Shown: positions 1,274 through 61,650, counted from the whole stretch's first letter. The stretch: DNA of 61,650 bases, filler included, from Choristocarpus tenellus KU-1152 (GCA_964200185.2; 9 parts of 9 records of this genome joined end to end with filler, not necessarily neighbours in it); one strand, 5' to 3'. Notes: generated from the letters alone by a model not told the origin. Numbers and translations: made by a program.

Positions 1274-1531
1274 GAGCCAAAGTATCTAAGAGGGTAGGGC
1301 TGCGTCCATTTGGGGGTCAAAATCCAATGTTGTGATTTTGATGTAATTTTGGCTATCATGTTAGTTAGGAAGTTTCAATATCCTTGTTCCGGGTACACCT
1401 TTTCATAACATACACACTTTTCTACTCCAAACTTTTTTCGAAGTAGAAAAACGTCATAAAAGAACCCATGGGAAGCCAAACCCGAAATGGACAAACAGGG
1501 CAAAACTCGTACCCTCTAAGATACTTCACTC
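1274..1531 (+). mobile_element. MITE family A
   Basis: GAGCCAAAGTATCTAAGAGGGTA...TACCCTCTAAGATACTTCACTC. Flanks agca/agta. Confidence 0.9.
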
Positions 1532-1596
1532 AGTAGACCCATGTGTGTTTATCCATACATATTTGTTGTTGTGTACTTGTGGGTGGATGGATGGTG

Positions 1597-2325
1597 CATG
1601 TGTGGAGGCAGTGTACCCTGTGGTTTGTCATCATCTTTGAATGGTGACTCCTAAAATACTACATAGTATGGGGGGCAGAGGATGGATCAGGGACACACAA
1701 TTGAAGTAATACTTGCCTTGACATGACACCTGTTGAGAATGTTAGGTTGTGCATCCCATGATACACCATTGTCACTTCACCTGTTTGTCATCAAGGTGGA
1801 TGGTGGATTTGGCACGGGGATTTCAGAGTTGGAAAATCTAACTGTGCTTCTATGTGACCATGATACATGTGGAAGCAGTGCTTCCTGTTATCATCATTAT
1901 CTTTGAATGTTGACCTCTAAAGAGATCAGGTAGAATGGGGGGGTGGGATAGATCAGAGAGTGAAATTATCTTAGAGGGTATAAGTTTTTCCCTGTGTGTC
2001 CGTTTGGGGCTTGACTTCCCATGAACTTTTTATCACATTTTCCTACCCTGAAATGTTTTGGAGTAAGTAAAATGTATACACGAAGAGGTGTGTCTGGAAC
2101 AAGGATATCGACACTTCCTGACAAACACAATAGCCAAAATTACATCAAAATCGCAACAATTGATTTCAACCCCCAAATGAACGCGGCTCTGCCCTCCAAG
2201 ATACTTTCACTTAGAAACACGATGTTGTATAATACTTGCCTTGACATGGCATCTAATGAGACACAATAGGTGATGTACCCCATGACACACCAACGTCACT
2301 TCACCCGTTTGTCATCAAGGTGGAT
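1597..2325. repeat. Diverged tandem duplication (about 205-bp segments 1597-1801 and 1866-2325, the latter carrying a MITE)
   Basis: Shared blocks catctttgaat, taatacttgccttgacatg and gtcacttcacc(t/c)gtttgtcatcaaggtggat. Confidence 0.8.
1958..2212 (-). mobile_element. MITE family A
   Basis: TIRs present, TSD aga/aga. Inserted in one copy of a local duplication whose other copy (about 1685-1700) is the empty site. Confidence 0.9.
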
Positions 2326-3824
2326 TTGAAAGGCTCAATTTACGGCATGTGTGCTTGCAGGATGGGAAAATCGTACCCCGGCAACACCAAAGGAATACTC
2401 CAGTAGTGCGCAATAAGTACCTTTCTGACAACCATCAAGCCGAGCGCCCCCTATCCCACAGCCCTTCACGAATATTGTATCTCAACACATGATCTCCTTC
2501 GTGTTTCTTCACACCAGAAGCACTCTACCCTCCACCTTTTGACATGGCATGTTCCAATATGTTGATCATCTTGGGCTCGTCGGTGCTCGAACAATCCGTT
2601 GACAGTGATATAATGAAATGTGCTGAAGCAAAAACAATGGATCATGCGACAAAGAGAATAACTGGAAAAAACCACGAGTTTGCAACACCAAGGGTGAAAA
2701 GTGCGGCCAAGAGCAGGGATGCAATTTCTGTGCTGAACTCCGTGGTGGATACCAAGGATAGAATCCTGAAGGAGGCTATTTGTTCACTGGATCCGAAGCA
2801 GAGAAACCGCCTTATTGTCGGGAGGAACGACTTTGTCAAATTTGTGAGCAATTTGTCTCTCTTGCATGAGAACAAGAGGGGGGGTATGAACGGGAAACAG
2901 ATAGAACATATAAACAACGAGACACTGCATTCCATAGATGTAGGAAGCCATGCCTCACAGCATGACATTCCCACCATTAGCATCAGCAAACACCTTGTGT
3001 GATCGAATAGCCAAGGCATTTTTTTCTGACTATGGCAGTTGCACCTCTGCTTGTCGACACTGCTAATATATGTATCCACCTCATCCCCTGAACCTTGTGA
3101 TATGACTTTGGCTTGCAAAAAAAAAAGAAGGAATGATCAGTAAAGAGTGTTGAATCATTTTTCGATTTCTCTTCTCTCCATCATGTATGTCGTGTAGATG
3201 TATGTGTACATGTCCTGACAAATGTGCCACAAATGCCTTTCAGTTTATCAATCAACTTATATATCGAATATTCTTGTTCTGAGGGGAGGTTTCAGAGAGG
3301 ACACATCTCCAGGTATGCAACAGTAGGTAGGAACTCTTGTGAGGTCTAGTTCCTGAGATGTTGGTGTGTTAATTAGTATGGAAACCTTCCACTTCCAGTA
3401 TTGCAAATGGGTTGCCTCTCTCCCTGCCCAGTCCCCAAGAACAGGACTGTCTTCTTTCATGCAATGCTGCCAAAGTGTGTGGGTTATGGTCGAGTATCCT
3501 TGCCTCACAGGTCTTGTACACTTTCACCAGCTTTTTCTTGGGAGGGCACAAAAATGGTTTGGGTAACCGATGAATATCAAGAGCAGTGATTAAGATCCTC
3601 TGAAATACTTCTCAACACGAAGAGTGTCCCCTTCCCCAGGAAGAGCTAAGGAAAAAGCAGAGGGAGACATTTGCAGGGATGCGGCTTGGAATAAACGCTG
3701 CTGATCATAAATTTGCCACGGAGAGGGTGAAGCAGGTCTGTTTCCAGCATGAGCTCAACATAATTCTTGATTGAATTTCGTTGATGAAATGTTGTTTTGA
3801 TATTCTTGGTGTTGCCTCCACAAC

Positions 3825-3988: not shown

Positions 3989-4079
3989 GACCCAAAGTAT
4001 CTGGTGGGTGGGGTGGGTGGGTGGGGGGTCTACACCAGGGTATCCAATTGGGACATAACCAGGAAAAGTGCACTTACAA
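3989..4079 (-). mobile_element. MITE family B, left part (contig end)
   Basis: GACCCAAAGTATCTGG-polyG-tctacaccagggtatccaattgg..ccaggaaaagtgc. Confidence 0.85.
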
Positions 4080-4179
4080 NNNNNNNNNNNNNNNNNNNNN
4101 NNNNNNNNNNNNNNNNNNNNNNNTTAATTAATTAANNNNNNNNNNNNNNNNNNNNNNNNNNNNNNNNNNNNNNNNNNNN
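4080..4179. other. Artificial contig linker N44-TTAATTAATTAA-N44 (also at 11311-11410, 15422-15521, 27200-27299, 31295-31394, 42227-42326, 45392-45491, 53208-53307)
   Basis: Eight identical 100-bp spacers with stop codons in all six frames. Confidence 0.98.
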
Positions 4180-4379
4180 AGGGGATGAGAGGTAGGGGGG
4201 GGGGGGGGGGGGGGGGGGGGGTGGCGGCTGTGAATTCAGGACCCATTTTTTCCTGTTGCGATTTTTTGTGTGATTTGGTTGGATGCGCTGGATGGATAAT
4301 GCATGAGCACTTCTCCTGGTCAGGGCCCTAATGGACACCCTGGTGTAGACCCCACCCCCCCTTCCAGATACTTTGACCC
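4180..4379 (+). mobile_element. MITE family B (left end lost at contig start)
   Basis: polyG-tggcggctgtg..cctggtcagggcc..atggacaccctggtgtagacccc..ccagatactttgaccc. Confidence 0.8.
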
Positions 4380-5020: not shown

Positions 5021-8000
5021 AGAAATATTAGAGGCCGAGCAATGGACAGTCATAATATCTCCACCATATTTCCAGACATCTTTATCCGGGGAACCTATCA
5101 GGCATTAGTGGTCAGGGCAAAAATCCTTGTCAAGAAAACTTGCCCAATAAGTTTCATAGCCTATAATGGTGCGTGCTTGGTACGTTTCACATTTTCATGT
5201 CTCGATTGCAATAGCAGTTGAATGTCATACCACATCCCCAACCTGCATTTCTAGCTCTGGAAACAGAAATATATGAAATGTGAAAGAAAAAAAAACTCCA
5301 CGAAAAAAACTTGCTGACAGTCTAGCCAACGACCCAAAGCATTTGAGAGGGTAGGAGTTTTGCCCTTCTGTCGTTTCAGGCCTTGACTTCCCAAGGGTTT
5401 TTTATGCTATTTTTCGGTTTTCTGTGTGAGCACTAACCCTAACCCTAAAATGTGTACCACTAAAAATGGTGTGTCCATAGCAAGGATATTGACACTTGCT
5501 GACAAACACAATAGTCGAAATTAACGACCTCAAAACGGAGGTGGCCCTACCCTCTTAAATGCTTCGGGTCAACCTTCTGCGATTTGGGGGTCATCCTTCA
5601 GGCCCCAACAAACAATATGTGAACAATATACTTCAACTGTCATTTGCAGACAAGACGAGAGACCTTATTGGCACAGCGGGGGAGTATGTTCACTTTTGGG
5701 ACTTGCAGACATCCGACCCGCTACGCCACTTTCGGACACCTTCCAAACAAGAGATTACCTGCATAACCACTGACCAGCCCGATCAGAGTCGTCTCTTCAT
5801 TGGTACAGTAGGAGGAAACATATCCGAATTTTGCATGGTGACTGGGCAGGTGAAGCCCTGCATTGGTGTGCTTTTACTGACGAGAGTGGGTTATTCATGT
5901 GTGCGGGTCTTGATTTGAGGCGACTACTTTAGAGCGAAATGGGTAGCTGATCTCTGAGCCATAATTACCTTTGCAGTAAATAATTGGGATATATTTCTGG
6001 TCTCAGAGTAGGTGCTAATTTTGTACAGTGTATCAGGGGTAGCAAGTAGTTTTTTTCTAGTTCAGTGATGTCTTTCATCATTTGCAATTTTGCAATTTAC
6101 TTGGGGTTACTAGTATATTTTCTTTATAACGATACCAAAGATAAAAAGAAAAAAATAGTGCTTTGTCCTCAAATTGGCACCGTATCACTGGAGTGCAATA
6201 ATCAGACTACTGCAGTTTGTGGCAATATATTGTTCAACTCCACTGTCCGGAAACTGTCCCAACCTAGCAATTACATTATCTTTTCTTTTCGCTTCATATC
6301 TTCTTTTTTTTCCTCCGTCCATGATTTTCACTTGAAAAACCAAGTGGAGATACACTGATAATCAATATTTTCATCATATATAGATATATATACTGGAGTA
6401 TGTTTTCTTGCTGTGGGATAAGGCTAGGGTTATGTAAGTACTGTTGAGTATCAATAGAGGTTGCATTTCTTTGCTCTATTCAACAGTGATGAGGTCAGGT
6501 CCTCCATGGTGATGCTGGATGTGTTAATACTCTGTTTGCATCGGCAGAGTGCTCTATTAAGCTCCCATTGAACCAATGTAGACTAGAGGTACCCAGGTCT
6601 TGACCGAATTGAATTAGATCCATTTTTTCCCTCTTTTGCGAGTCACCCTCACAGGCATAGATAAAGTGCTAAGATTGACCTGAGAATGTCAATTTTTCTA
6701 TTGTTTGAAAAAACTCAAAGCACTTTAGAAAATTCCCCATACATGCTTGTATAGAAGCCGCATATTGCACGATTTGTCAGCATCCTCAAAATGCAACCCC
6801 GGTTACCTCACATCAATTTTGACTCATTCAAAATTTATTCCAATACTTTTCTCAAGTATTTTTTTCCTTTTTTTCCGAATTTCCTTTGAAATTATAGTCC
6901 TGTTCTTCTTCATATACTTTATATTTTTGGGACAAACTCCGAACACTCTCTGTTCTGGTGTAAGAATACATTATCGCTATGATATTGTTCACAGGGCTGT
7001 ACGATTCTCAAACCAAGCACATAGTATTGCTTCATCAGAGGTGTGTCAATGATACGACCAAGAGAATCCTTCTCTCGACCTTCAGAGGTTGACGTTATTT
7101 TCCGTTGACAGCATTGCCTCCAGATGGAAGTGACAGCCTTCTACTTTTCATCCTCTGCACGTGTCACACTTGGTGAAAAACTGATGATCAATGTTTGCCT
7201 ACTACCAATTGATACACTTGTTCAATGTCGCCTGTTGCAGCTTCTACTGGAGCTCAAGAGAGTTCACCATGGGTCTGTAACATCTCTCATCTTCTGCCAA
7301 ACGACTTCGAAACAGATCATATCAACAGGAAGCGATTGTCGAATTGTATTGCACCGTGAAGACATCTCCAAATCTCGATTCAAGTTTGTTGGAAGCAAGG
7401 AAGAGGCACGTTTCTTACATCAAGAATCATGTAGACTTGAAAAAGAAAACACACGCGCGCGCGCGCACTTTTTTGCTTCATGTACACAAGCTAAAGGGAA
7501 GCTTTACCCCTTCTCGTTGCATTTTCATGTGTAGTATTGAGCTCCAGCTATAGAACAAGAAACGTTACGGTGGGTCACCCTGCTTCGGTGAACTAGGCTA
7601 TCTAATATTGTCACCACTATTATCAGTTGTCCCATCTTTCGTTAGGCATTGCGAACAATCCGTTTTTCATGTAATCTGCCGGTCTCCTCCGCACAGGCCC
7701 ACAAAGGCAGCATTACAGCCTGTGCTGTTTCTGAAGAGACGTACTTGATTGCAACAGCATGCGGCGGGGATATCTGCCTTTGGAGTATCATGGCAAGTGG
7801 AGTCTTCAGGAGTGTGTACCCAAAATAATTGGGATTGGAAGAAGAAATGGGAAGGCAACAACAACATACAAAAATAGTACATATGAGGAATGTAGCGTAT
7901 ATTTTTTGAGGGAGTGAGATGTAAGTTCCATGAAATCATGTCAACAGTACAACTAGACGTGTGAATAAATCTGCTGTACTAAAAACTATACAAATATGTC

Positions 8001-11000
8001 GCTAAGGAACACAGATGTTTACAGAATAGGCGAAGGAACTTGGGAAAATTATTTGAAAGATACGGACTTGTTTCTGATGTTCCACACATTTCTTATTCCT
8101 CCACTGGCTCTGAAATTAGGATCCAAACCATTAATGAATGGCTAACTCGAACCTTTACAAACAGAGAGAAACAACTTCCCCCGAAAATCTATATACTGGG
8201 AGCAGAGGAGATTTGATTATATATTTAGTACTTTGCTTTTTGTTGAACCTTCTACAGCGAATCTCATTTGTGGGCTACATCTTTCTAGATTTTCGAATAT
8301 ATTGAGTGACAGAGTTCCACATGTCTTTATTCCCTTTGCCACCAACAATATATTGTGAAAGAGGGCTGGTTGGTTCTCCGTTTCTATAGTCTCGGTTTGT
8401 TTCACATCCACGAAATGAATTCTCGCGAAGAAGATTCTGGAGTAGAAATTATGGAATAATATTATTATAGAAATTATGCTGTTTGCCTACAGGATCTGAG
8501 GTTCGAGGGAGGAACGGCGGGGCTTGAAGCAGATATACGGAGCCTCAAATTTATTCCGCAGACAACGTGTTTGATAACTGGTGACTCCAGTGGTAAGGTC
8601 ATTCTCTGGTTAGTGGTATTCTCCTGTGAGGCTCAAGGCAAAACCATCATAGGAACACGTCAAAATAGAGAGATGGAATGGAAGGAGGAGACTGATGGGC
8701 CACAAGAACTGGCAGTCGAGTGGCCAGGGGGGAGAAAAGACAGCGGGTATGAATTTGGCATCAAACTAAAATACATGTTTACTATTGCAGAGTACTTATT
8801 AACAGGAAGGTGAGAGCGGTCAGGAAGCATGCGCCTCCGGCAGATTGGGTACAACGCTGTGAAAATGCGTAAGCAACATGGATGACAGACGGCTAACTAA
8901 CTACTTTCAAATATGAGTCTCGAACATTATGACTGGGAGAATTGGGAACTTTGAAACATGACTGGCCAATTCTAAGGCATTTTATTTTGTCGTTCTCTTG
9001 AACCATTGGTTCATTTTCTAAGTCTCTGAAATTACCCTATCCCTCCTTGCACTGATATGTATACCCGTTGACCCATTGTTGATTCATGCATGTACATCAG
9101 GTTTCCTCTACTAGTGTCTCTGATCACGATGCCAACAGTATTATACGACCCCCCTGTCTGTGTTGGAGCAGGAATTCAATTCCAGAGAAGGTATCAACTC
9201 AATTTCCACTGCCACCAGTACGAACTTCACCATCTTCATCATTGCTGTCATCACCACTACAAGCTCGACCTGTGAGTGCGACAGGCCCTAGAAGAGGCAC
9301 AGATGAGAGTTTAAGGGGGGAGAAGGTGCAATAGCTCTTTCCCCTGCTTGCAGCTAAACCTTGAAAAGGAAGATAGAAGAATAGTATCCTGCAAAGAAGT
9401 GGGGAGAGAGTCTAAGGGGTCAAAGTAAGCGAGAGGTACCCAGATTGAAAAACCAGCTTAAAATGAAAACAGTTGAATCCTGGCCACCTCTCATTTACTT
9501 TGACTCAAAGCAAACCTTACCAAATGTCCTCCCACTAATAAGTGGCAATCATCCTTGCTTGAACCTTCATTTCAACCTCAAGTTTTCTTCCTTTTCATCT
9601 TTAGAAAATATACAACCATGCCTCTCTCGCTGGGAACAGTTCTTGCACGCCTACAATCACAATAAGCTCTCTCAAAGACAGAGCTGATAACCTATCAAAT
9701 TCAAACAATGTTCAGGATACGAATCGGTAACTTAAGTCCTAGTATATGCAAAGCAACCTATAAACTCACTCCCATATCAGCCCTTTTCATTCTCACCTTG
9801 CTGGGGGATATTTCTTGCACAAAAGTCAAAGGTATCTGCTGGTGTATGCACCTTGCAGCCTTTGGCCCTAATGTTTTCTTCTCAATCAAGCAAGAGGGAA
9901 CAGGGATCAGTGGATACTCTCTGCCTTCATTGGATGTTCAACTTGCAGGGGAAAAAAAATGGAGTAGATGCAGGCTGTGAAGGCGGTATGGAAAACGATA
10001 GAGGGGAGGTGGTGGGAGGTAGAGGTATGGGACCAACGCAGGATGGTTGCAATATGGTGAATGTTATACCAGCATATATCGACGCCTTGTCAAACCTATT
10101 TGTCTTGGCTGGGGGTGCAGGAGGCTGGGTTGATCTGTGGAATGCAAACAACCTCTTGAAAGAAGCAGGCATTGACATGTGAGTATGAATGTGGTGAAGG
10201 AACAGGACATTCATAGTCCCATCTCTGTCAACTCTCGATACAAAGAATAATGCCATGATACCATGCAGAAAGATAGTTTGCTGTTCCACATCCTCACCGC
10301 TCAAATATCCTAGGATATTTCAAAATACTCTGAGTACGTAGGATAAACATGAAGAAATTTATATGGTAATACAAATGAGGAAATATCGAAAAAATAGATA
10401 TTCTTTCAACACAAAGTGCTTCCTGAGCTTCTACTGAGCCAAAGCATTTATGAGGGTAGGGCCGCGTCCGTTCTGGTTCGAAATACCAATGTTGCAATTT
10501 TGATGTCATTTTGGCTATCATGTTTGTTAGCAAGTGTCAATATCCTTGCTCTGGACACACCTTTCATGGTCGTACTCCGAAATGTTTCGGAGTAGGTAAC
10601 TGTGTTCACACAGAAATCCGAAAAAGGGTAAAGGGGATTTAATAAAAACGAGGGAAGCCAAGCCCCCAAACGGATAAATAGGGGGCAAAACTCCTACTCT
10701 ATTAAATGCTTTAGCTCACTCTTACTGTGCAGGCATAAGACTTCATTTTACAAGCCGGTCTTCAGTTGTCAAGAGGCCCACCCTTGCCCTCCCTTGCTTG
10801 CCTGTGGAAAACATTCAACTCTACATCTTTAAGGAGGGTTATGGCTGAGGATCTATACAGGCGAAAAAAAGAAGTTGCACACCGGCAGGTTCACTCCAGT
10901 TTCTGCTCCATCCATCCTGGGCTCATTGATCCACTAGGTCATCTCAGCAATCTCTCTGGTTCGAAGGAAACGCACTGTATCCTGAGGAGGTCAGGGCTGC

Positions 11001-11140: not shown

Positions 11141-11237
11141 GTGTGAGGCATACAATCGAGGTAGGCGCAGGGTCAACGAGGGGCTAATCGCAAGGGTAGT
11201 GAGTGGTGGGGCTTGTTGAGTAATGCTGTTATGTATT

Positions 11238-11310
11238 GAGCCAAAGTATCTTAGAGGGTAAAACCGCGTCCATTTGGGGGTCAAAATACAATGTTGTGAT
11301 TTTGATGTAA
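11238..11310 (+). mobile_element. MITE family A, truncated by contig end
   Basis: GAGCCAAAGTATCTTAGAGGGTA..GTCCATTTGGGG, then the linker. Confidence 0.85.
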
Positions 11311-20380: not shown

Positions 20381-20567
20381 GACCCAAAGTATCTCTGTGT
20401 GTGTGGGGGGGGTTATCTACACTAGGGTGTGTCCATTTGGACCAAAACCAGGAAAAGTGCACTTTCATTATCCATCTGACGTGTGCAACCAAATTATCCA
20501 AAAATCGCGACATGAAAAAATTGACCCCAAATGGACAGCTGCCACCGCCCCCCAGATACTTTGGGTC
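20381..20567 (-). mobile_element. MITE family B, complete
   Basis: GACCCAAAGTATCT...AGATACTTTGGGTC. TSD aata/aata. Confidence 0.9.
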
Positions 20568-21591: not shown

Positions 21592-21851
21592 GAGTGAATG
21601 TAACTTGGAGGGTGCGAGTTTTCCCTGCTTGTCCATTTGGGGCTTTGCTTGCCCCACATTTTTTTTAATGACATTTTTCCTCCTCCGAAATTTTTCAGAG
21701 TAGGTAAAATATATACATTATGAAAAGGTGTGTCCGGAACAAGGATATTGACACTTCCCAACAAAAATGATAGTCAAAATTACATCAAAATCGAAACATT
21801 GGATTTTGGCCCCAAACGGACACGGCTCTACCCTCTGAGATACTTTGACTC
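21592..21851 (-). mobile_element. MITE family A
   Basis: TIRs present, TSD ttt/ttt. Confidence 0.9.
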
Positions 21852-23251: not shown

Positions 23252-23510
23252 GAGTGAATGTATCTTAGAGGGTACGATTTCTGCCCTGTTTGTCCATTTG
23301 GGGCTTGGCTTCCCACGGGTTTTTAATGACATTTTACCTACTCCAAGATGTTCCGGAGTAGGTAAATTGTTTAAATTATGAAAAGGTGTGTGCGGAACAA
23401 GCATACTTACACTTCCTAACAAACATGATAGCCAAAGTTACATCAAAATTGCAACATTGGATTTTGGCCCCCAAATATACGCGGCTCTACCCACTATGAT
23501 ACTTTGAATC
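23252..23510 (-). mobile_element. MITE family A
   Basis: TIRs present, TSD cat/cat. Confidence 0.9.
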
Positions 23511-23935: not shown

Positions 23936-24194
23936 AACCCAAAGCATCTAAGAGGGTAGGCCGTTTGTTTGGGGTAATAAATCTAATGTTGTGATTTTGA
24001 TGTAATTTTTGCTATTGTGTTTGTTAGGAAGTGTCAATATCCTTGCTCCGCACACACCTTTCATAGTCGTATAGATTTTAGGTAACTGTGCTCACACAGA
24101 AAACCGGGAAAGGTCATAAAATATTTTTGGGAAGTCAAGCCCCGAACGGACAAATAGGGCAAAAATCCTTTAGCCCCCTTAAATGCTTTGGTTT
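23936..24194 (+). mobile_element. MITE subfamily A2 (diverged)
   Basis: AACCCAAAGCATCTAAGAGGGTAGG...TTAAATGCTTTGGTTT. Flanks aat/agt. Confidence 0.8.
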
Positions 24195-24287: not shown

Positions 24288-24549
24288 GAGTCAAACCATC
24301 GTAGAGGGTAGAAGAGTTGTGTCTGTTTGGGGGCCAAAATCCAATATTGCAATTTTGATGTAATTTTGGCTATTGTGTTTGATAGGAAGTGTCAATATCC
24401 TTGTTCTGGACATATGCATGGTATCTACTCCAAAACCTGTACAGTTAACATTTTTGGGTATTAGGGAAATATCATAAAAAACGAGTGGGAAGCCAAGCCT
24501 CAATCAGACAAACAGGGCAAAACTCATACCCTCCAAGATACTTTCACTC
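24288..24549 (+). mobile_element. MITE family A
   Basis: GAGTCAAA...AGATACTTTCACTC. TSD ttt/ttt. Confidence 0.88.
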
Positions 24550-33114: not shown

Positions 33115-33420
33115 GAGTGAAAGTATCTTAGAGGGTACGAGTTTTGCCCTGTTTGTCCATTTGGGGCTTGACTTCCCTCGTTNNNNNNNNNNGCCCTGTT
33201 TGTCCATTTGGGGCTTGACTTCCGTCTTTTTTTTTTTTTACATTTTCCTACTCCGAAATATTTCGGAGTAGGTAAAATGTGTATGTTATGAAAAGGTGTT
33301 TCCGCAACAAGGATATTGACACTTCCTAGCATACATAATAGCCAAAATTACATCAAAATCGCAATGTTGTATTTTGGCCCCGAAATGGACCCGGCCCTAC
33401 CCTCTAAGATACTTTGGCTC
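33115..33420 (-). mobile_element. MITE family A (contains a 10-N assembly gap with duplicated sequence)
   Basis: TIRs present, flanks cttg/cttg (4 bp). Perfect internal palindrome cctactccgaaatatttcggagtagg. Confidence 0.88.
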
Positions 33421-33753: not shown

Positions 33754-33930
33754 GGGTCAAAGTATCTGGGGTGGATGGCGACTGTCCATTTGGGGCCAAA
33801 TTTTTCATGTCGCGATTTTTGGGTGATTTGGTTCCATACATTGGGTGGATAATGAAAGTGCACTTTTCCTGGTTTTGGTCCAAATGAACACTCTGGTGTA
33901 GACCCCTCCCCCCCCTAGATACTTTGGGTC
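33754..33930 (+). mobile_element. MITE family B, complete
   Basis: GGGTCAAAGTATCT...AGATACTTTGGGTC. TSD aaa/aaa. Confidence 0.9.
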
Positions 33931-42170: not shown

Positions 42171-42202
<32 letters not shown>

Positions 42203-43770: not shown

Positions 43771-44015
43771 AAGCCAAAGTATCTTAGAGGGTAGAGTCCC
43801 GTCTATTTGGGGCCCAAAATCCAATGTTGTGATCTTGATGTAATTTTGCCTATCATGTTTGTTTGGAAGTGTCAATATCCTTGTTGCGGGCACACCTTTC
43901 CATAAAGTATACATTTTACGTACTCCGAAGTATTTTGGAGTAGGAAATGTCATTAAAACCCCGAGGTAAATGGAGAAACAGGGCAAAACTCGTACCCTCT
44001 AAGATACTTTTAGTC
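43771..44015 (+). mobile_element. MITE family A
   Basis: TIRs present, flanks agc/agt. Short deletion removes part of the long-offset box region. Confidence 0.85.
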
Positions 44016-45491: not shown

Positions 45492-45510
45492 CTCCCAGAT
45501 ACTTTGGGTC
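45492..45510. mobile_element. B-type terminus inserted in a family-A copy
   Basis: ctcccagatactttgggtc is directly fused to the A palindrome. Confidence 0.7.
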
Positions 45511-45687
45511 TTTCCTACTCGAAAATATTTCCGAGTAGGTAAAATATGTATGTTATGAAAAGGTGTGTTGGGAACAAGGATATTGACACTTCCAAACAAA
45601 TACAACAGCCAAAATTACATCGAAATCGCAACATTGGATTATGACCCCCAAATGGACGTGACTCTACCCTCTAAGATATCTTGGCTC
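45511..45687 (-). mobile_element. MITE family A, right part (interrupted by a B-type end at 45492-45510)
   Basis: Starts at the palindrome and runs to TACCCTCTAAGATATCTTGGCTC. Confidence 0.85.
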
Positions 45688-46086: not shown

Positions 46087-46343
46087 GAGCCAAAGTATCT
46101 TAGAGGGTAGGGCCGTGTCCATTTGGGGGCCAAAATCCAATGGTGCGTTTTTGATGTAATTTTGGCAATCTTGTTTTTAGTAAGTGTCAATATCTATGTT
46201 CTGGACACACATTTCCATAACGTATACATTTTACGTACTCCAAAATATTTTGGAGTAGGAAAATGACCTAGAAAAACCCATGGGAAGCCAAGCCCCAAAT
46301 GGACGATCAGGGCAAAACTCGTACCCTCTAAGATATTTCACTC
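46087..46343 (+). mobile_element. MITE family A
   Basis: TIRs present, flanks gttc/attc. Confidence 0.9.
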
Positions 46344-49226
46344 ATTCCGGTGTAATTGGAGTGCTGCCTTCTCCATATTCCGACGTCTAATATCACATTC
46401 CAAACGGTCAAACAACACTGCACCAACCCCTTACTTGACCACCTGAAATTTGGACAGCCGATCCGTACATTTTAATCATTAACGATAATGTGGACTACGG
46501 AACTAATCGACTTATCCCCTAACATTCCCACGTTCTTCTGTCCTGGTCATGTTGCCCTCTCCTCCACACACTGCACACATCCCCTTTAACTCTTTTGCCT
46601 CTTGCCTCCTCCTTTGCCCGAACGTCTACTGCTGCAGAGGTCAGCCATGTAATTTGCATGATGATTACTCTGGACAGCAACGTCAAGTCTGAACACGACT
46701 TACAGGTCTTCAAGGGAAAAACGCGTGTGGCCCACGAAAACGTCGCCGCGAACCTACAGACCCAACCAGGAGGCATTGTTATTACATACACTGTCCTCGG
46801 CGACAATCACCGGCCGGATTAAATCCAACTCCTAATGGAGAATATCTCCATATTCTGCAAATTTCCACTCTCCAAGACACAGGTGGAGGGTGATGTCTCG
46901 AAGTCTGATAATAGTGGAGAAATTAACCCCAATGTTGATTAAGAGGAACAGGAGATGCCATCGCCCAACCCGACAGAAGGTGGGAGGAGTGGGACACACT
47001 CTGAGGGCAGCCTGGCAACCCTAACCTCGGAACACGACTCCACTGGCGATAGAGACCGGTCTGGTTCTAGCGTTTTGTCATCTTCCATCAAGGATGACGA
47101 AGAAGACATTGGGGAGGTGCCAGATGCAGCATCAGAGTCCATGTGTGGGGGGATGATTCCAGAAGGTGTACAATCGTTGATACAGTGGGTACCAGCGGGG
47201 ATGAGTCCGTGGAACTTGACTCAACTGGTAAAAGGGAGAGGAATGACGAGATTAGGGAGATTAGTGGAGCTCCATGGGGAGTCAATGGAATCTACAGTTG
47301 TGAGGAAATCATTCGGTTCTTCTCTGAGAGACAGGTCTTCGACAAAGAAGGCAAGACTTGGCAAGACTCTAACTTCAGTCAATAGGAACAAGAGGTACTC
47401 CAAACTCGTAGACTGGTGGGAGAAGCGTGAGGGGTGCAAATTCCAATACGCCCATAAATTGAAATAGAGCCTTGTTCGTTTCAGATTTTTCTTGGAGTAT
47501 GGGTCGCGTTACTCTTGGGGGCTAACTGCACCTTAGGCAGTCTCCGACTACTATATTCGTGCAGTTTTGATCTGATGGGTTATGCCTTTCCACAGTGGTA
47601 CCGGATCCATGTAGCCCAGTCAGAGGTGTCAGTACATCGTATATGATACTAATCTTGAGGGTTAGGCTTATGTTGTTCTATTCTAATAAAGTGTGTCCAA
47701 TCCAAGGTTCAGATTGCTAAAATATCATATTTTCTATACCCAACTCTTCTCGTTCTTTTCAGCTAAGTTTCCAAAACAATTCCCCAAGGCCTACATTCGA
47801 CACATTGTCTCCTTCTCGGTCAATAGTTATTCTCCAAACCCTATTTAGCTCCCCTCTACTTCTCATTATTTGATTCACCATATCTAAACACTATACTTCA
47901 TCTTTTCCTGACTATGTTCCTCCAACTAACTCTTCGCACATAGCTGACAAGAAAAGTAGTCCCTCTGGTGAACCCGTGGCTTCCTCCTAACCATCAATGC
48001 TTACCAAAGTATGGCTTTTGTTCAATATTCGGGTTCACCTTCCTACCTCCAAATGGGCGGAAAGAATCACAACACGTACATACACCAACCTTGCAAACCT
48101 CACACTTAAAGATTACGTCAACATCTTTTCGCTTCAACACCACTCTTTACCATAATGTGGAGAGGGGTCCATCATAACCCTAACTGCGACGCATTGCTTA
48201 GGATCCAACCATCATTGCATAATTTCTTCTTTTTGGTACCTATCCCCGACACAAACTCTAACCCTGCCTCCAACCGTTCATTTTCGTACACCAGACAAAC
48301 CATTGTTCAACCGACTTCCTAGACCTGACAATTCCTATATATAAAAATTCACAGCAATCACACAAACATCTCATGCTTTGCCAACGTTTCGATAAACGAG
48401 GGCGAATTTTGCCTTGCTTTCAATCTTCAAAGAATATTCCCTGAAGTCCACGTTCGATACTCCTAACCACAAGACTAACCCTGAGCCTACCATAGACACG
48501 TTCCATAAACTTGATGAATGGCCTGGATCAAACCCCCCCCCACAATAACACTAACCATAAACCTTACCCTGACCCTTACCCTAAGCCCATCTACATGCCA
48601 TGCCAACCTAAAGTCGTCATGTTTCATGTGTCCTACTCAAATTCCGTCTCTGTGCCATGCTTGACCTTCATCACCCTAACCTAACCCAGTCAGTCATCAA
48701 GGATGAAATCAACCCAATAAAACAACCCCCTAACAAAGGATAGTATACGTTTTTATTCTTCATGCGAACCATAAGACAACAGACCCCAACTAACAGCCCT
48801 GTTTTTGTACATGCAAAATCCGACATATCCAACCAAGAAACCACTAAACTAACCAGAAAACAAACGATTGGATATTTTTCATGCTTCATGCAAACCATGG
48901 GACAACAGTTCCCAACCGACAGTCCTGTTTGTGCACATGTGAAATCCGACACATGCAACAAAAGAAACCACTAAGCTAACCAGAAAATTAACGATTGGAT
49001 ATTTTTTCATTCTTCATGCGAACCCTAGGCCAACAGACCCTAGCCAACAGCCCTGTTTGTGTATATACAAAATCCGACACATGCAACCAAAGAAACACTA
49101 AAATAACCCGAAAACAAACCATGGTATATTTTTCATTCCTCATGCGAACGCAAGGACAACAGACCCTAATCGACAGCCCTGTTTAAACACATTGAAAATC
49201 CGACACATGCAATCAAAGAAACATTA

Positions 49227-49462
49227 TAGCTTTGCAGTGTTTTTCCATTTGGGGCTTGGCTTCCCATGGGTTTTTTTCATGACATTTTCCTATTCCAAAA
49301 TGTTTAGGAGTAGGTAAAATGTATACATTATGAAAAGGTGTGTCCGAAACATAGATATTGACACTTCCTAACATACACGATACCCAAAATTACATCAAAA
49401 TCGCAACATTGGATTTGACCCCCAAATAGACGCGGCTCTTACCCTCTAAGATACTTTGGCTC
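49227..49462 (-). mobile_element. MITE family A with damaged left end, inside the 127-bp tandem array
   Basis: TSD tta/tta, defined by the interrupted repeat unit (aaagaaacatta|..|ttaaactaacc). Confidence 0.85.
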
Positions 49463-49576
49463 TTAAACTAACCCGAAAACAAAGGATGGCATATTCCCAT
49501 TCTTCATGCGAACGCAAGACACCGGACCCTCACCGACAGCCCTGTTCGAACACATTGTAATCCGACACATGCAACC

Positions 49577-49832
49577 GAGTCAAATTATCTTAGAGGGTAG
49601 AGCCGCGTCCGTTTGGGGGACAAAATCCAATGTTGCGATTTTGATGTAATTTTGGCTACTGTGTTAGGAAGTGTCAATATCCCTCTTTTGTACACATGTT
49701 TTCATAACATATACATCTTACCTATTCCGAAACATTTCGTAGTAGGACTATATCATAAAAAAAAACGGTGGGAAGCCAAGCCCCAAACGGACAAATAAGG
49801 CAAACCTCGTACCCTCTAAGATACTTTTACTC
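49577..49832 (+). mobile_element. MITE family A inserted into a B-type subterminal region
   Basis: TIRs present. Interrupts tgcaacc|aaatc; TSD unclear. Confidence 0.88.
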
Positions 49833-49914
49833 AAATCAAATCACCTAAAAATGGGAAAACCTAAAAAAGGGTCCCGAACGGACGCCCTCACCCCTCCCCG
49901 AGATACTTTGACCC

Positions 49915-49967
49915 TTTTCCTGGTCAGGGTCTGAATGGACCCCCCACCCCCCCAGATACTTTGAGCC
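49915..49967 (+). mobile_element. MITE family B, long-offset end only
   Basis: ttttcctggtcagggtctgaatggac-polyC-agatactttgagcc. Confidence 0.75.
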
Positions 49968-50310: not shown

Positions 50311-50564
50311 GAGCCAAAGTATCTTAGAGGGTAGAGTCGTGTCCATTTGGGGCCTAAAATACAATGTTGCGATTTTGATGTAATTTTGACTATCTCGTTT
50401 GTTAGGAAGTGTCAATATCCATGCTCTGGACACACCTTTTTCATAACATATACACTTTACCGACTCCTAAACATTTTGGAGTAAGAAAATGTCATAAGAA
50501 AACCCATGGGAAGTCAAGCCCCAAATGGACAAACAGGGCATTACTCGTACCCTCTAAGATACTC
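50311..50564 (+). mobile_element. MITE family A inside the mariner relic
   Basis: Left TIR intact; right TIR has a small deletion (AAGATACTC). Flanks cca/aca. Confidence 0.88.
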
Positions 50565-50955
50565 ACAGGATAGGTTTCATCTGCCACACACACAGGAGCG
50601 GGGGAAGTGGGGCATTAGTGTACAATCTATATGACTGGGTGCATGGAGGAGATGTGGTTTTACATCTTCAAAAATGGGCAAGGTATGTACCTGCATTGCA
50701 CCCCACTGAGGATCCCCCCAAAACCATCACAGGCACGGAGGAAATATTACATTACGAAGGTGGTGTTTCTTGCAGCTGTGGCCCATCCTAGGAAGCTCTC
50801 CAGTGGGATGGATATATGGTTCGATGGGAAAATCGGGATGTGACCAATCATGAACACCAAGGTCGCTCAGTCCTACAACAAACACCGCCCCAAGGGCACC
50901 AAGGTACTTGTGCCAGTCATAGTGGACGAGGAGAGATATAAGAGGCTTATAATCG

Positions 50956-51225
50956 GAGTCAAAGTATCTTAGAGGGTAGAGCTGCGTCCATTTGGGGACC
51001 AAAATCCAACGTTGCAATTTTGATGCAATTTTGATGCAATTTTGGCTGCCATCTTTGTTAGGAGATGTCAGTATCCTCGTTCCGGACACACCTTTTCATA
51101 ATGTATGCACTTTACCTACTCCGAAATATTTCGGTGTAGGTAAAATGTCATTAAAAACCCGTGGGAAGCCAAGCCCCAAATAGACAAACAGGGAAAACCT
51201 CGTACCCTCTAAGATACTTTCACTC
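50956..51225 (+). mobile_element. MITE family A inside the mariner relic
   Basis: TSD tcg/tcg. Removing the element plus one TCG restores the host frame YKRLIIEKVIPAIKA. Confidence 0.93.
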
Positions 51226-51719: not shown

Positions 51720-51976
51720 GAGCCGAAGTATCTTAGAGGGTAGAGCCGCGTCTATTTGGGGTCAAATTCAATGTTGCGATTTTGATGTGATTTTGGCTAT
51801 CGTGTTTGTTAGGAAGTGTCAATATCTATGTTTCGGACACACCTTTTCATAATGTATACGTTCTACCTAACCCTAAACATTTTGGAGTAGGAAAACGTCA
51901 TTTAAAAAAACATGGGAAGTCAAGCGCCAAATGGACAAACAGGGCAAACCTCGTACCCTCTAAGATACTTTCACTC
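51720..51976 (+). mobile_element. MITE family A
   Basis: TIRs present, flanks ata/aca. Confidence 0.9.
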
Positions 51977-53307: not shown

Positions 53308-53476
53308 GGGGGGGGGGGGGGGGGGGGTCTACACCAGGGAGTCCATTTGGGCCAAAATCAGGAAAAGTGTATTTACATTATCCATCCGACTTATGCAACC
53401 AAATCCCCAAAAAATCGAGACATGAAAAAATTGACCTCATATGGACAGCCGCCACCCCCCCCAGATACTTTGACCC
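53308..53476 (-). mobile_element. MITE family B (left TIR lost at contig start)
   Basis: polyG-tctacaccagggagtccatttgg...atggacagccgccacccccccagatactttgaccc. Confidence 0.88.
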
Positions 53477-53966: not shown

Positions 53967-54153
53967 GGCTCAGAGTATCTGGGTGGGTGGGTGTGGGTCT
54001 ACACAAGAGTGTCTATTCGGACCCTGACCAGGAAAAGTGCGCTTACACTATCCATCTGACAACATGGAACCAAATCACCCAAAAATTGCGACATGTAAAA
54101 ATGTGCCCAAAATGGACAGCCGCCACGCCACCCCTCAACAGATACTTCGAGCC
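53967..54153 (-). mobile_element. MITE family B, complete
   Basis: GGCTCAGAGTATCT...AGATACTTCGAGCC. TSD aaa/aaa. Confidence 0.9.
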
Positions 54154-54636: not shown

Positions 54637-54910
54637 GAGAGGTGCCCAGGGTTGCATTTTTAGGGTGACGAAAAATGTACGTAAATTTCGGCATTTTATA
54701 CAAATGAGTTTAGGAAGTTTTCTAAATTTGGTCGAAAAATTTCAAACAATTGAAAAACAACTGTCTCGAATCAATTTTGGTACTTCATCCATAGAAATAT
54801 GGGTGAATCGAAGAAGATTTTAAAAGCAACCTAAAATGCAAAGCAAACAAGACCTGGGCAATCTCTCGTTTATTTTGGCTCAGAGGGTTTTGCATTGAAG
54901 GGTACCTCTC
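54637..54910 (+). mobile_element. Older MITE-like family C
   Basis: Short TIR GAGAGGTGCCC...GGGTACCTCTC. Homologous to 6584-6811; no clean TSD. Confidence 0.6.
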
Positions 54911-56049: not shown

Positions 56050-56311
56050 GAGTGAAAGTATCTTATAGAAGGTACGAGTTTTACCCTGTTTGTCCATTTA
56101 GGGCTTGGCTTCCCATGGGTTCTTTCATGACATTTTCCTACTCCAAAAATGTTTAGAAGTAGGTAAAGTCTGTATGATATGAAAAGGTGTATCCGAAACA
56201 TGGATATTGACTCTTCCTAACAAACACGGTAGTCAAAATTACATCAAAATCGCAACATTGGATTTTAACCCCCAAATGGACGCGGCTCTACCCTCTAAGA
56301 TACTTTGATTC
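56050..56311 (-). mobile_element. MITE family A
   Basis: TIRs present, flanks taa/tat. Confidence 0.9.
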
Positions 56312-58482: not shown

Positions 58483-61400
58483 GTGAATGAAGCAGGATGA
58501 AGAACAATGGAAGGGATTACCTACCTATCGTCCTGTGTATTATTGTCGAATGTGATGTTTGGGATAGGCGAATTTTACGCATCGTATGTGTGGAATTCGC
58601 TTCAGGGTTGGAAGGGCACTGCTGGGAAGCTTGCATTAATTTGTGTGAAGGTGTAGATGTGACGCTGTGCATTGCATACTCGTGATACACACTGGATGGA
58701 TCGGTGGAAGAGCAAGAAGTGTTTGATTGGAGATCACACTCGCAAAATCCTCAAGAGTCAAACTATCTGTCCATGTCCTGCCAGGCGATGGAACAGGCCG
58801 TTTACCTTTCACTTGGATTATTTTTAATGGGGAATTAGATGGAAGCGCCCTAAAGTCTTGCACTAGGATATTTCGGTAGGGTATACCCTGAAGAGCTGAA
58901 CAGCTCGATTGGATTTTCCGCTTCATCAGCACCTTCCCACATTATCAATTTCTCGGCACATTGATTTGCAATCAACTCTTCACACCCTCTCCAATAGATA
59001 CTGCTAGAGATCAAGTACATGGTTAATATTTTTATTTGTCAGTGAGAGGTTGTGCTCCCTCAACAAATGCTCGAAGTGGACCCAAGTGTGTAGGAGTGGT
59101 TAAGAATATATACGCATTGGCATTGCCTTTTCGATGTGGATGAAAATGTTTGGCTTTTTGAGTGCACCAATTCATCCTCAGCATGAAACCTCCTAACACC
59201 TTTCCATTCCGCTGAACCCCCATTTTTGGTCTCCAGAAATATGGGATTTCCCACATACTGTTGGTTACACCTCCACCCAAATTTCCCTTGTTATTCTTAC
59301 TTGTGAAGGTATGGTATGATCGCTGTAAAACAGTTGGATGGTATGGTGTAGTAGCAGCACCCCTGATTATCTATGGTGGCGAGGGTTATGTCAACAGGAA
59401 GCAACAGTACATCATAGATTTATGCAGTATGACAACCATAGTGACTACCTTACAAAACTCTTTTCTTTATTATTATGCGGTTCCATCTGTTGATGTGTGA
59501 AGCTTGAGATCCACATTTGCCAACATTTGAAATATGATGCCGAGACCACCTGTTGTTGTGGCCAAAGGCATAGCACTTTAAACAGCTCTAAGAACTTAAC
59601 ACTATCATTAACACCTCTCCCGATCCGATGAAGACTTCCGACCCACCTCTGTGTACATCCAGACCATTAGGTAAGTCGCGCAGGAATGATCCTGCAAAGG
59701 TGGCACGTCTTGCAGAATCAATTGCAGGTGAGATGTGGACTGGTGTTTGGCTTGATTTATATACATACATTCTAATTCCTCAGTATAACAAGAGGAATAT
59801 TAACCCATTGTACCTCTGGAGGTGTGTGCCTTGAATACACTAAGCTCTAGAGTACTCTGAATAGTGATGAAGGTAACATGATTGCTTGTGCCATACACTA
59901 TTGAAGCAGGTCAAGTAATACATGGGAGTTGTCTTGTGACTTGATTAACATGAGGTCAAGAGTTTACGAAGTTTACGCTCCATTTGATGGTGGACTATTC
60001 TCCAACAGCTATTGCAGATGCCCCTGACAAACCTCTGGCCACTTTCCTCAAACAGAAGTTTGACATCCATTTTTTTTCCCCTTGATCTCGAATGTCCAGA
60101 CTCCACAAACCATCGCCATTTTAGTAATTTTGTTGACCGTCTGCAGATATGACATTGTGTTTGTATTTCCAATTCTGTGACAAACAGCATATCATGCAGA
60201 GTACTTGTTTACTCGGTCTTCCTTTGAAGACAAATCAAATGCAGACTCTTTCAACCCTCTACTGAGACACCTGTGACAGGACCAATGTCGCAATAGATCT
60301 TACTGTCTCCTTTCTGCTATTTTTTAATGGTGGCATTATATACAACGTGAGGTGGCATCAATCCCATGTTCCATTGGTCTACCTATTCATTTGCTGCTGG
60401 TCTCCTCACCTGTTTATTCTGTTTTGTTAAAAGTGCTCCACTGTATCTCACTGTTTTCAGACGCTGCAGTTTTTTAAAAGCACTTCACCATGGCATTGCC
60501 CCTCACACCATCTCCATTATGATTGTGTCTGCCATCAATTACTGTGTGTCACAACAATCCGCCACCTTTCCTCCTTCACAGTGAATAAGACACCTGCCTT
60601 TGAAAACCTCTTACTTCAAAGTAGCTTTTTGAGGGTGTTGCTGATTGTTTTCCTTTCCCAGCAGGGCCAGCAATCAAAATCTTGCTCCTCTGCTGCCAGC
60701 ACTGGCACTTTCCTGTGCAGAATATAATTACCATGTTTGGAAATACCAGCAATGACTGGCTATCTCATGCATTTGCAAATGTCTAATGGTTCAACCCACT
60801 TAGGTAGATATGTATCAAGGAGAGAATTAAGTTGTTAAATGAACGACCAGTAGAAAGGATCAAATCTCTCATGCGTTCACAGTTATCTAAATATTTAACC
60901 AACTTATGTGGAAACCTATCAAGGAGAGGATGAGGTTGAAAGAGTACGACCAGTGGAAAGGATTTTAAAATTCCATAGACATCTATAAATTTGTTGGCTT
61001 ATGGTCTGAGCAGGATATCATTAGTGCTCAGTAGGAGAATGGGGAACGATTGCTGGACCTGTTGAGAAAAGGGACAATATTGGTATTTAATTGTGGGCTC
61101 CGAAGAATGGCACGGTCTTCAAGTGAAACTGGGATGTGTGAACATTGATCTTGTACCTGGGTGCTAACCTGTTCAAGATTGTGACGCGATACGCCCATTA
61201 GATACCTGTACTTACAGATAATGTTTCGCACAATTTCTCTCTCCAGCACAACAATGCTCTTGGTTGCCTAAAAACTCCCAAATCTTTTCTGATAACAAAC
61301 ATGATGTGTATCACTACTACTACTACTTCAAGATATTCGAAATGTCGTATTTTGAATTTCGGAGCACTTATAATGTAGGTATTTTGTCAATTATATTATC

Positions 61401-61483
61401 TTACGTGGAAATTGGAAGGTAACATGATGAGTGCAAGTTGCAATTTCTTCACAATTGACGCAACCAAGGATTAGGTGGCAAAA

Positions 61484-61650
61484 GGCTCAAAGTATCTGGG
61501 GGAGGTGGCGGTTGTTCATTCAGCGCCCATCTTCATTTCTCCATTTTGGGTGATTTGTGTGCGTCGGGTGGATAATATAAATTCACTTCTCCTGGTCAGG
61601 GCCCGAATGGACACCCTGTTGTAGACCCTCCCCCCCCCCCCCCCCCCCTT
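61484..61650 (+). mobile_element. MITE family B (runs off window)
   Basis: GGCTCAAAGTATCTGGGGGAGGTGGCGG...gaatggacaccctgttgtagaccc-polyC. Confidence 0.85.

What the first reader, a model, noticed from the sequence alone, without database searches (positions are those of the whole stretch)
1274..61650. Two MITE families share a bipartite, helical-turn-asymmetric end grammar (30 vs about 40 bp), reminiscent of a 12/23 rule
Seen: families A, A2 and B have largely different interiors and different spacer sequences (A: TAGAGGGTA..; B: poly-G). Yet essentially all intact ends carry the same 14-bp terminal box (GRSYS-AAAGTATCT; AAAGCATTT in A2) and an internal box GTCC(A/G)TTTGG(GG) in the same orientation. 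Terminus-to-internal-box distances counted by hand (short/long end): A 50956 30/40, 51720 30/40, 33115 30/40, 1274 30/39, 46087 30/39, 21592 30/39, 56050 30/42; A2 5331 30/39, 10436 30/42; B 33754 30/41, single short ends 53476 30 and 61484 30. B copies with slipped G/C tracts deviate (20381 31/50, 53967 36/44). Every complete copy measured pairs one short with one long end, giving spacers of about 16 and 26 bp. Established: RAG recombination signals use two motifs with 12/23 spacers differing by about one helical turn, and several DDE transposons have asymmetric ends. Inference: an unidentified transposase recognises box-spacer-box ends with length-conserved, sequence-free spacers and needs asymmetric synapsis. 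The termini (G.., not CAC) and the 3-4-bp TSD do not match Transib/ProtoRAG, so this could be an independent or undescribed system.
Basis: partly seen in the sequence, partly recalled or inferred. Interest (0 to 1): 0.85.

Follow-up and report, generated by a model that had tools for sequence, protein, structure and literature searches.

The report
Algal mini-transposons with uneven two-part ends
Two related families of short, abundant jumping DNA elements, in what is likely a brown alga, carry the same two motifs at both ends, 16 bases apart at one end and about 26 or more at the other; they are likely moved by a Harbinger-like transposase, and the uneven spacing is likely inherited from one parent element, a layout already known from P, piggyBac and Transib transposons.

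Summary

The 12/23-type reading is weaker than claimed. A2 is a subfamily of A, and A and B are homologous over about 80 nt from the short end, so there are two related lineages and short+long pairing is what inheritance gives. Spacers are not sequence-free within a family. The 10-bp offset is tight only in A; B long ends measure 27-53 bp.

No transposase was found. The ends point to Harbinger/PHIS: B begins GGGTC or GACCC like Ectocarpus Harbingers, duplications are mostly 3 bp, and targets lean A/T-N-A/T. The TWA target test fails, so I do not file it as Harbinger proper. Uneven two-part ends are published for P (9/21), piggyBac (3/31) and Transib (12/23). A longer multicopy element, C, starts with a B-type end and is the best lead to the parent.

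The parts
1274..1531 (+). Family A MITE, complete (strand = short end first throughout); 30/39
1958..2212 (-). Family A MITE, complete; 30/40; exact 3-bp duplication
5331..5570 (-). A2 subfamily MITE; 30/39; exact 3-bp duplication
10436..10717 (+). A2 subfamily MITE; 30/42; exact 3-bp duplication
11238..11310 (+). Family A short end, cut by an assembly gap
21592..21851 (-). Family A MITE; 30/39; duplication in an A/T run (3 or 4 bp)
23252..23510 (-). Family A MITE; 30/40; exact 3-bp duplication
23936..24194 (+). A2 subfamily MITE, decayed; 27/43
24288..24549 (+). Family A MITE; 33/40; exact 3-bp duplication
33115..33420 (-). Family A MITE with a 10-N gap and a repeated piece of the long end; 30/40; exact 4-bp duplication
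43771..44015 (+). Family A MITE; 30/40
45511..45687 (-). Family A short-end half, interrupted by a B-type end that runs into a gap
46087..46343 (+). Family A MITE; 30/39
49228..49462 (-). Family A MITE lacking its long terminus, inside the tandem array of element C
49577..49832 (+). Family A MITE; 30/40; inserted in the end of element C
50311..50569 (+). Family A MITE, long terminus damaged; 30/39
50956..51225 (+). Family A MITE; 30/40; exact 3-bp duplication; left terminus confirmed by loose ends of contigs
51720..51976 (+). Family A MITE; 30/40; right terminus confirmed by loose ends of contigs
56050..56311 (-). Family A MITE; 30/42
1..72 (-). Family B short end (distance 37), cut by the window edge
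3989..4078 (-). Family B long end (distance 53), cut by an assembly gap
4195..4379 (+). Family B MITE; short terminus lost in poly-G beside a gap; long end 43
20381..20567 (-). Family B MITE; 31/50; exact 4-bp duplication; GACCC at both termini
33754..33930 (+). Family B MITE; 30/41; exact 3-bp duplication; GGGTC and GACCC termini
45492..45510 (.). B-type terminal box pointing into an assembly gap, inserted in an A copy
49915..49967 (+). Family B long end with a 13-bp spacer (distance 27), interrupted by element C at an A run
53308..53476 (-). Family B MITE; short end 30; long terminus lost in a gap
53967..54153 (-). Family B MITE; 36/44; exact 3-bp duplication
61484..61650 (+). Family B MITE; short end 30; long terminus beyond the window edge
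46350..49914 (-). Element C: long multicopy repeat that starts with a B-type short end at 49914 (distance 31), continues as B does for about 100 nt, then carries a 126-bp tandem array and at least 2.4 kb of decayed interior; far end not found; likely relative of the parent of B
48750..49222 (.). 126-bp tandem array (3.7 copies, 81% matches) of element C; a further unit lies at about 49463-49576 between two A insertions

Best explanation
These are two related families of non-coding miniature inverted-repeat elements, about 258 and 180 bp long, likely moved by cut-and-paste by a Harbinger-like (PHIS) transposase encoded elsewhere, with the 16 versus about 26 bp spacing likely inherited from the left and right ends of one ancestral element. 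Shown: the end structure, the termini, mostly 3-bp duplications, an A/T-N-A/T target lean, the shared descent of A, A2, B and the end of C, high abundance, and decay of the copies (77-82% pairwise identity). Inferred: the 14-bp box is the terminal inverted repeat where the transposase cuts. The internal GTCCRTTTGG box is likely a protein-binding site, by analogy for the separate DNA-binding protein that Harbinger systems use. A 10-bp offset would keep that box on the same helical face at both ends. The short spacer length is likely under some constraint, because it survived sequence turnover between A and B. Whether one short and one long end are required together is untested.
For: MITE nature: 28 copies or pieces cover 6,075 bp, 9.9% of the window; 41,237 and 29,562 contigs of two runs lay on a 1.6-kb stretch holding two A copies, with loose ends at the termini; duplications exceed chance. 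Shared descent: an HMM of B finds A short ends over model positions 2-77 (E 1e-4 to 0.08) and an HMM of A finds B 20566-20420 over positions 2-137 (E 2.8e-5); ungapped A versus B identity is 24/40 beyond the box; A2 is 71-79% identical to A; C continues as B does. Harbinger likeness: in the Ectocarpus table, Harbinger-5 (with a possibly pseudogenised transposase) and N7 have GGGTC termini, N4 and N8 have GACCC, all with 35-43 bp TIRs and 3-bp duplications (PMC12477816 supplement file 1). GGGTC and GACCC make up 11 of 48 ends here. The host is likely a brown alga. Counting one end per insertion, the base 3 nt outside is A/T in 27 of 30, and W-N-W occurs in 18 of 30 against 9.6 expected (p 0.0015). 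That fits a 3-bp stagger and covers both the TNA and ANT targets of PHIS groups (PMC4482050; PMC12477816). PHIS as a whole gives 0-4 bp duplications (PMC10045372). mPing depends on its terminal 14-15 bases and two proteins, and G at positions 16-17 raises its activity (PMC9921582); both families here are G-rich just inside the 14-bp box.
Against: No cognate transposase was found: Pfam scans of 9 and 148 open frames (of 185 frames of 75 aa or more; most of those left out overlap the MITEs) and of 6 and 18 read-through frames around C gave no Harbinger-type domain. A motif scan gave only two isolated partial matches. The TWA target of PIF/Harbinger is met at 1 of 30 insertions, TNA at 2, ANT at 4. 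Two of 18 copies have a clean 4-bp and no 3-bp duplication. The match to Ectocarpus covers five terminal bases only, because the consensus FASTA files could not be read. KDZ-5 also begins GGGTC, though with 8-bp duplications. The GAG termini of family A are not among the Ectocarpus Harbinger termini. W-N-W is driven partly by 8 of 30 AAA/TTT sites.
Confidence: 0.55

Rival explanations
1. The mobilising complex, whatever its family, enforces a pairing rule: it needs one 16-bp end and one roughly 26-bp end, as RAG needs 12 and 23. This is the first reader's view and can be true together with a Harbinger-like transposase.
For: 19 of 19 complete copies are short+long. The offset in A is 9-10 bp in 11 of 13 copies, one helical turn. 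Between A and B the boxes are kept (12/14, 10/10) and the short spacer keeps 16 bp with 5/16 identity. The first 9 spacer bases are the same at both ends of A, yet the ends were not made equal in length. P elements are proposed to pair their 9/21 ends by induced asymmetry (PMC7776569 passages).
Against: There are only two related lineages, and inheritance alone predicts short+long in every copy. B long ends are 27-53 bp and none is 40, though poly-G may slip after insertion. Within 11 A copies the spacers show 1 and 2 indel events (5.7 and 7.0 per kb per copy) against 11.9 in the interior, too few to separate from neutral decay. In mPing, making the 3' end more like the 5' end raised activity (PMC9921582).
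Confidence: 0.25
2. The elements belong to Sola (Sola1 or Sola2) rather than PHIS.
For: An insect Sola1 TIR ends in GTCCATTTT starting at position 28, close to the GTCCATTTGG box at position 31 here (PMC3845634 Table 1). Ectocarpus has Sola1 and Sola2, and Sola2-1 begins GGCGG. GRG termini for Sola2 are recalled, from no call. Some duplications here are 4 bp.
Against: Sola duplications are 4 bp, AWWT for Sola1. Here 3 bp dominates (9 versus 3 of 18), and the flank bias sits at position -3, not -4 (43 of 48 versus 28 of 48 A/T). The motif match rests on one insect family, found after looking through several tables.
Confidence: 0.12
3. The elements are moved by a transposase of an undescribed superfamily; the long repeat C is its decayed autonomous form.
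For: No group in the papers read combines G-R-S termini, mixed 3/4-bp duplications and a relaxed W-N-W target. The C interior has no Pfam match, no ESM Atlas hit and a single homologue among 1.84 billion proteins, an unnamed Choristocarpus protein. Most brown-algal element families are unclassified (PMC12477816).
Against: C is frameshifted and full of stops, so blank searches say little. It may be a non-autonomous or patchwork repeat. The termini and duplication length fit PHIS without a new group.
Confidence: 0.1

Closest known systems
Ectocarpus Harbinger families (Harbinger-5, -N4, -N7, -N8_Ec32; PMC12477816 supplement file 1)
   Same: GGGTC or GACCC termini, 3-bp duplications, inverted similarity over 35-43 bp (box-spacer-box spans 40 bp at the short end here), non-autonomous members, related host group.
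   Different: Those families target TwA or TnA and are 0.8-6 kb long. Here the target is a relaxed W-N-W with some 4-bp duplications, the elements are 180-260 bp, and family A starts GAG. Whether their TIRs hold the same boxes could not be checked.
mPing/Ping, PIF/Harbinger Tourist MITE of rice (PMC9921582)
   Same: Short TIR of about 14-15 bp, G just inside it, sub-terminal and internal sequences that tune activity, MITE derived by deletion from a longer element.
   Different: No second box at unequal spacing is described in the parts read; PIF/Harbinger targets TWA (PMC4482050).
Drosophila P element (PMC7776569)
   Same: Terminal repeat plus a 10-bp internal binding site at unequal spacing (9 and 21 bp), already compared in print to 12/23.
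   Different: 31-bp TIR, 8-bp duplication; P-type elements of Ectocarpus start CAAGG with 7-bp duplications.
piggyBac (PMC5861402)
   Same: 13-bp terminal repeat plus 19-bp internal repeat, with spacers of 3 and 31 bp at the two ends.
   Different: TTAA target and CC termini; the offset is 28 bp, not 10.
Transib and RAG recombination signals (PMC1131882)
   Same: Two motifs with a spacer; five Transib families, three of them non-autonomous by name, pair a 12-type with a 23-type end.
   Different: CAC termini, 5-bp duplications, GC-rich targets; none is met here.
Sola1_NA MITE of insects (PMC3845634)
   Same: G terminus and GTCCATTT near position 28-31.
   Different: 4-bp AWWT duplication; symmetric TIR as tabulated.

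Membership tests
MITE (non-autonomous TIR DNA transposon) | Short, non-coding, homogeneous in size | tested here: met
   A about 258 bp, B about 180 bp, copies 82% and 77% identical; no Rfam match anywhere in the window.
MITE (non-autonomous TIR DNA transposon) | Terminal inverted repeats and target-site duplication | tested here: met
   14-bp box, extending to 23 bp in A; exact duplications in 11 of 18 copies.
MITE (non-autonomous TIR DNA transposon) | High copy number | tested here: met
   28 copies or pieces in 61.65 kb; 41,237 contigs laid in run X1.
PIF/Harbinger in the strict sense | 3-bp duplication | tested here: met
   Exact 3 bp in 9 of 18, the commonest class; 2 of 18 are 4 bp only.
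PIF/Harbinger in the strict sense | TWA (or TNA) target | tested here: not met
   TWA 1 of 30, TNA 2 of 30 insertions.
PIF/Harbinger in the strict sense | TIR under 60 bp beginning with A or G | tested here: met
   44 of 48 ends start with G and 4 with A; GGGTC and GACCC match Ectocarpus Harbingers.
PHIS superfamily | Autonomous partner with a DDE_Tnp_4-type transposase and a second DNA-binding gene | tested here: inconclusive
   None in the window frames scanned; no genome is held.
Pangu (PHIS) | ANT target | tested here: not met
   4 of 30 insertions.
Transib / RAG-like | CAC terminus and 5-bp duplication | tested here: not met
   No CAC end among 48; no exact 5-bp duplication in 18; definition from PMC1131882.
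Sola1 / Sola2 | 4-bp duplication (AWWT for Sola1) | tested here: not met
   Exact 4 bp in 3 of 18; flank bias at -3, not -4.
CMCT (EnSpm, Chapaev, Plavaka) | CA..TG termini in most cases | tested here: not met
   Termini are G-R-S; definition from PMC12730594.
P, piggyBac, KDZ | 7-8 bp, TTAA and 8-bp duplications respectively | tested here: not met
   No exact duplication of 5-8 bp and no TTAA in 18 copies.
12/23-type obligate pairing rule | Reaction needs one short and one long end | not testable with these tools
   Needs the transposase and swapped substrates, or genome-wide family counts.
12/23-type obligate pairing rule | Spacer length kept while its sequence is free, across independent families | tested here: inconclusive
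   Short spacer 16 bp in A and B with 5/16 identity, but only two related lineages; long spacer not constant in B.

The most novel reading that the evidence does not exclude
A brown-algal lineage of transposons, PHIS-type or undescribed, has evolved its own one-helical-turn pairing rule. The complex reads a 14-bp terminal box and a GTCCRTTTGG box 16 bp apart at one end and 26 bp apart at the other, needs one of each, and inserts at relaxed A/T-N-A/T sites with 3- or 4-bp duplications. It would be a convergent parallel to RAG 12/23 outside the Transib and P lineages, with element C as its decayed parent.
Probability: 0.15. Interest if true: 0.7.

Novelty: new variant of a known kind. Interest (0 to 1): 0.33.

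Why it matters
As it stands this adds two apparently undescribed, very abundant MITE families (about a tenth of this window) in a poorly annotated algal group. It also points to a Harbinger-like lineage with a relaxed target and mixed 3/4-bp duplications. Uneven two-part ends are a recurring transposon design, so the layout alone would not surprise a specialist. It would matter more if the pairing rule proved obligate, because how transposases tell left from right ends, and how often a 12/23-like rule arises, could then be tested in a third lineage with thousands of natural substrates. 'Undescribed' rests on paper searches (listings), on a motif search of the five readable supplements of PMC12477816, and on three blank look-ups of earlier findings. 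Repbase, Dfam and the Ectocarpus consensus FASTA files could not be searched.

Tried and rejected
Whole genome: none is held, so the genome-wide spacer histogram and pairing count could not be run. Collection scans for the end pattern: viral contigs 0 matches in two scans; metagenome contigs 3 matches and prokaryote genomes 4 matches, each a single end with no partner, in prokaryote-like coding DNA, judged chance (L001-L003 gave no BLAST match to the window). Two of these, L005 and L006, are one archaeal gene seen twice. Sequencing runs: no RNA holder listed. Run X3, another organism, gave 2 reads from about 2% of the run, too few to use. Summed contig depth over A (0.2-2.4 million in X1, against about 14-29 for single contigs) suggests tens of thousands of copies, but the tool warns it is no copy number, so I use it only as a rough sign. 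Transposase hunt: Pfam, ESM Atlas, phmmer on 1.84 billion proteins (one hit, P0121) and two follow-up searches with P0121 (nothing further). A frameshift read-through of C with N at the breaks gave no clean long frame. The Tc1-like relic at 31677-32967 and the mariner-like relic at 50571-51719 were rejected as partners: neither is bounded by these ends, and A copies are inserted into the second. Long-long pair 3989/4379: rejected, two copies across a gap. Rfam: nothing. Two papers were not held: the original Sola/Zator paper and the AcademH paper, so Academ and Sola2 termini are recalled only.

Full report
Setting. The window is eukaryotic DNA of about 43% G+C with eight 100-base scaffold gaps and one 10-N gap. 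A PI3-kinase exon at 27944-28360 has its best named relatives in Phaeothamnion (87%) and Chrysoparadoxa (82%), then brown algae. A decayed frame at 46580-47464 has one homologue among 1.84 billion proteins, an unnamed Choristocarpus tenellus protein at 63% identity, a brown alga. The host is therefore likely a brown alga or close relative. No whole genome is held.

The exact box-spacer-box pattern occurs 12 times and never in 100 shuffles. Over 48 hand-picked ends, A short ends measure 30 bp in 14 of 16 and A long ends 39-40 in 12 of 13. A2 gives 27-30 and 39-43. B-type short ends give 30-37 and B long ends 27, 41, 43, 44, 50 and 53. All 19 copies with both ends measurable pair short with long. 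One B copy whose short terminus is lost beside a gap was left out, and the seeming long-long pair at 3989/4379 is two copies across that gap. Contigs from two runs break off at the predicted termini, and 41,237 and 29,562 contigs lay on a stretch with two A copies. The 28 copies or pieces fill 9.9% of the window. Exact duplications are 3 bp in 9 of 18 copies and 4 bp in 3 of 18, one site counting in both, against 0.40 and 0.11 by permutation.

The families are not independent. A2 aligns to the A consensus at 71-79% over most of its length. A and B align without gaps from the short end: terminal box 12/14, spacer 5/16, internal box 10/10, next 40 bases 24/40. Profile searches find each family with the other over the first 75-135 positions. 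There are two lineages with a common ancestor. Each copy inherits one left and one right end, so 19 of 19 short+long pairs is the null expectation and no test of a rule. Within 11 A copies the spacers are as conserved as the boxes (7-9% versus 7-10% substitutions), and the indel counts are too small to show a length constraint. Both A spacers start with the same 9 bases and both B spacers with a G run, so the inverted repeat really runs about 23 bp. That suggests two protein-binding sites at a constrained distance. It is one comparison.

A longer relative. At 49914 on the minus strand a B-type short end continues as B does for about 100 nt once an inserted A copy is skipped, then runs into a 126-bp tandem array. 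Contigs laid on 46350-49225 cover all 30 bins at several to tens of times single-contig depth, and contigs from other copies join the array to 48.2-48.7 kb. So a repeat of at least 3.5 kb, element C, carries this end, and B looks like a deletion product of a C-like element (inference). C sits inside a B long end at an A run. Its far end was not found. Its interior is frameshifted and has no Pfam, Atlas or informative homologue match. Whether all of it is one element is not shown.

Which transposase. None was found in the window, and scans of viral, metagenome and prokaryote collections gave nothing or lone chance matches. The ends are the only guide. The curated Ectocarpus table (PMC12477816; I read passages and all of supplement file 1) lists Harbinger families with GGGTC or GACCC termini, 35-43 bp TIRs and 3-bp duplications. 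These are two of the three terminal pentamers of B. Flanks here are A/T at position -3 in 43 of 48 ends, or 27 of 30 counting one end per insertion, and W-N-W in 18 of 30 against 9.6 expected. That fits a 3-bp stagger and spans the TNA and ANT targets of PHIS groups (PMC4482050, parts 1-2 of 4 read). PHIS gives 0-4 bp duplications overall (PMC10045372 passages). Against this, TWA is met once in 30, two copies have only a 4-bp duplication, A starts GAG, and the Ectocarpus sequences could not be read. So it likely works like a Harbinger MITE but fails the strict target test, and I do not file it as PIF/Harbinger. Sola is the main named rival: an insect Sola1 TIR has GTCCATTTT at position 28 (PMC3845634 section 11), but Sola makes 4-bp duplications. 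Transib, CMCT, P, piggyBac and KDZ fail on termini or duplication length.

Likely mechanism. Shown: end anatomy, duplications, target lean, descent, abundance. Inferred by analogy with mPing (PMC9921582, part 1 of 5 and passages): a transposase supplied in trans cuts at the 14-bp box; a DNA-binding partner likely holds the internal box; G-rich bases just inside the terminal box may tune activity; and the element inserts with a 3-bp, sometimes 4-bp, stagger. A 10-bp offset would keep the internal box on one helical face at both ends. That fits an obligate asymmetric complex and equally a symmetric one that tolerates whole-turn shifts. The copies are now 77-82% identical, so the bursts are old.

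Comparison and novelty. Two-part ends with unequal spacers are published for the P element (9 and 21 bp, explicitly likened to 12/23; PMC7776569 passages), piggyBac (3 and 31 bp; PMC5861402 passages) and Transib, including non-autonomous families (PMC1131882 passages). The layout is a known kind. What seems new is the families themselves and a Harbinger-like end with a relaxed target and mixed duplication length. That rests on the paper searches, the supplement search, and blank look-ups of earlier findings; Repbase and Dfam were not available.

Verdict. Observation confirmed, interpretation partly supported. New variant of a known kind, interest 0.33. An independently evolved obligate pairing rule has probability about 0.15 and would deserve about 0.7.

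Noticed in passing
window 50571-51719 (+), interrupted by the A copy at 50956-51225: Decayed mariner-like transposase; the translation shows VFLAAVAHPR, FDGKIG and SPKLNVNDVGFF motifs recalled from plant-type mariners. No Pfam match.
   Followed up: partly
window 31677-32967 (+): Decayed Tc1/IS630-like transposase with a weak DDE_3 match (E 0.0024) around LPKYHCDLNPIELWWG.
   Followed up: partly
window 15070-15420 (+), with a direct repeat at 12948-13153 / 14438-14647: Frame ending in LLLDVT...AAAAAEARKRTHY, recalled as like the restriction-type endonuclease of CRE-like non-LTR elements; no Pfam match. The region has a strong GC skew.
   Followed up: no
window, interior of family A (consensus positions about 141-185, e.g. 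51104-51148): An internal palindrome of about 40 bp that makes the A profile match itself on the other strand; A2 copies carry different sequence there.
   Followed up: no
window 48560-48700 and inside the A2 copy at 5331-5570: Short telomere-like (TTAGGG-type) repeats next to the tandem array of element C and inside one A2 copy.
   Followed up: no
window 48000-48160 (-): Cysteine-rich stretch CEVCKVGVCTCCD in the interior of element C, possibly a decayed zinc finger; no Pfam match.
   Followed up: partly
window 23538-23611: A lone perfect terminal box at 23559 inside a 15-bp tandem repeat, with no internal box.
   Followed up: no
window 34019-34379 / 52234-52644, 53521-53827 / 55381-55670, 6657-6809 / 54639-54792: Other dispersed repeats unrelated to A and B; the one at 52158-52300 is highly multicopy in both runs.
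   Followed up: no
window gaps at 4080-4179, 45392-45491, 53208-53307, 11311-11410: Four of the eight 100-base scaffold gaps (N runs with a TTAATTAATTAA linker) abut these elements, three of them at or in B copies, so B ends are under-represented in this assembly.
   Followed up: partly
window 5559-11143 (+), 16220-16627 (-), 27944-28360 (+): Host exons: WD40 repeats, a BRCT domain and a PI3-kinase (Vps34-like); several MITEs lie between the WD40 exons.
   Followed up: partly
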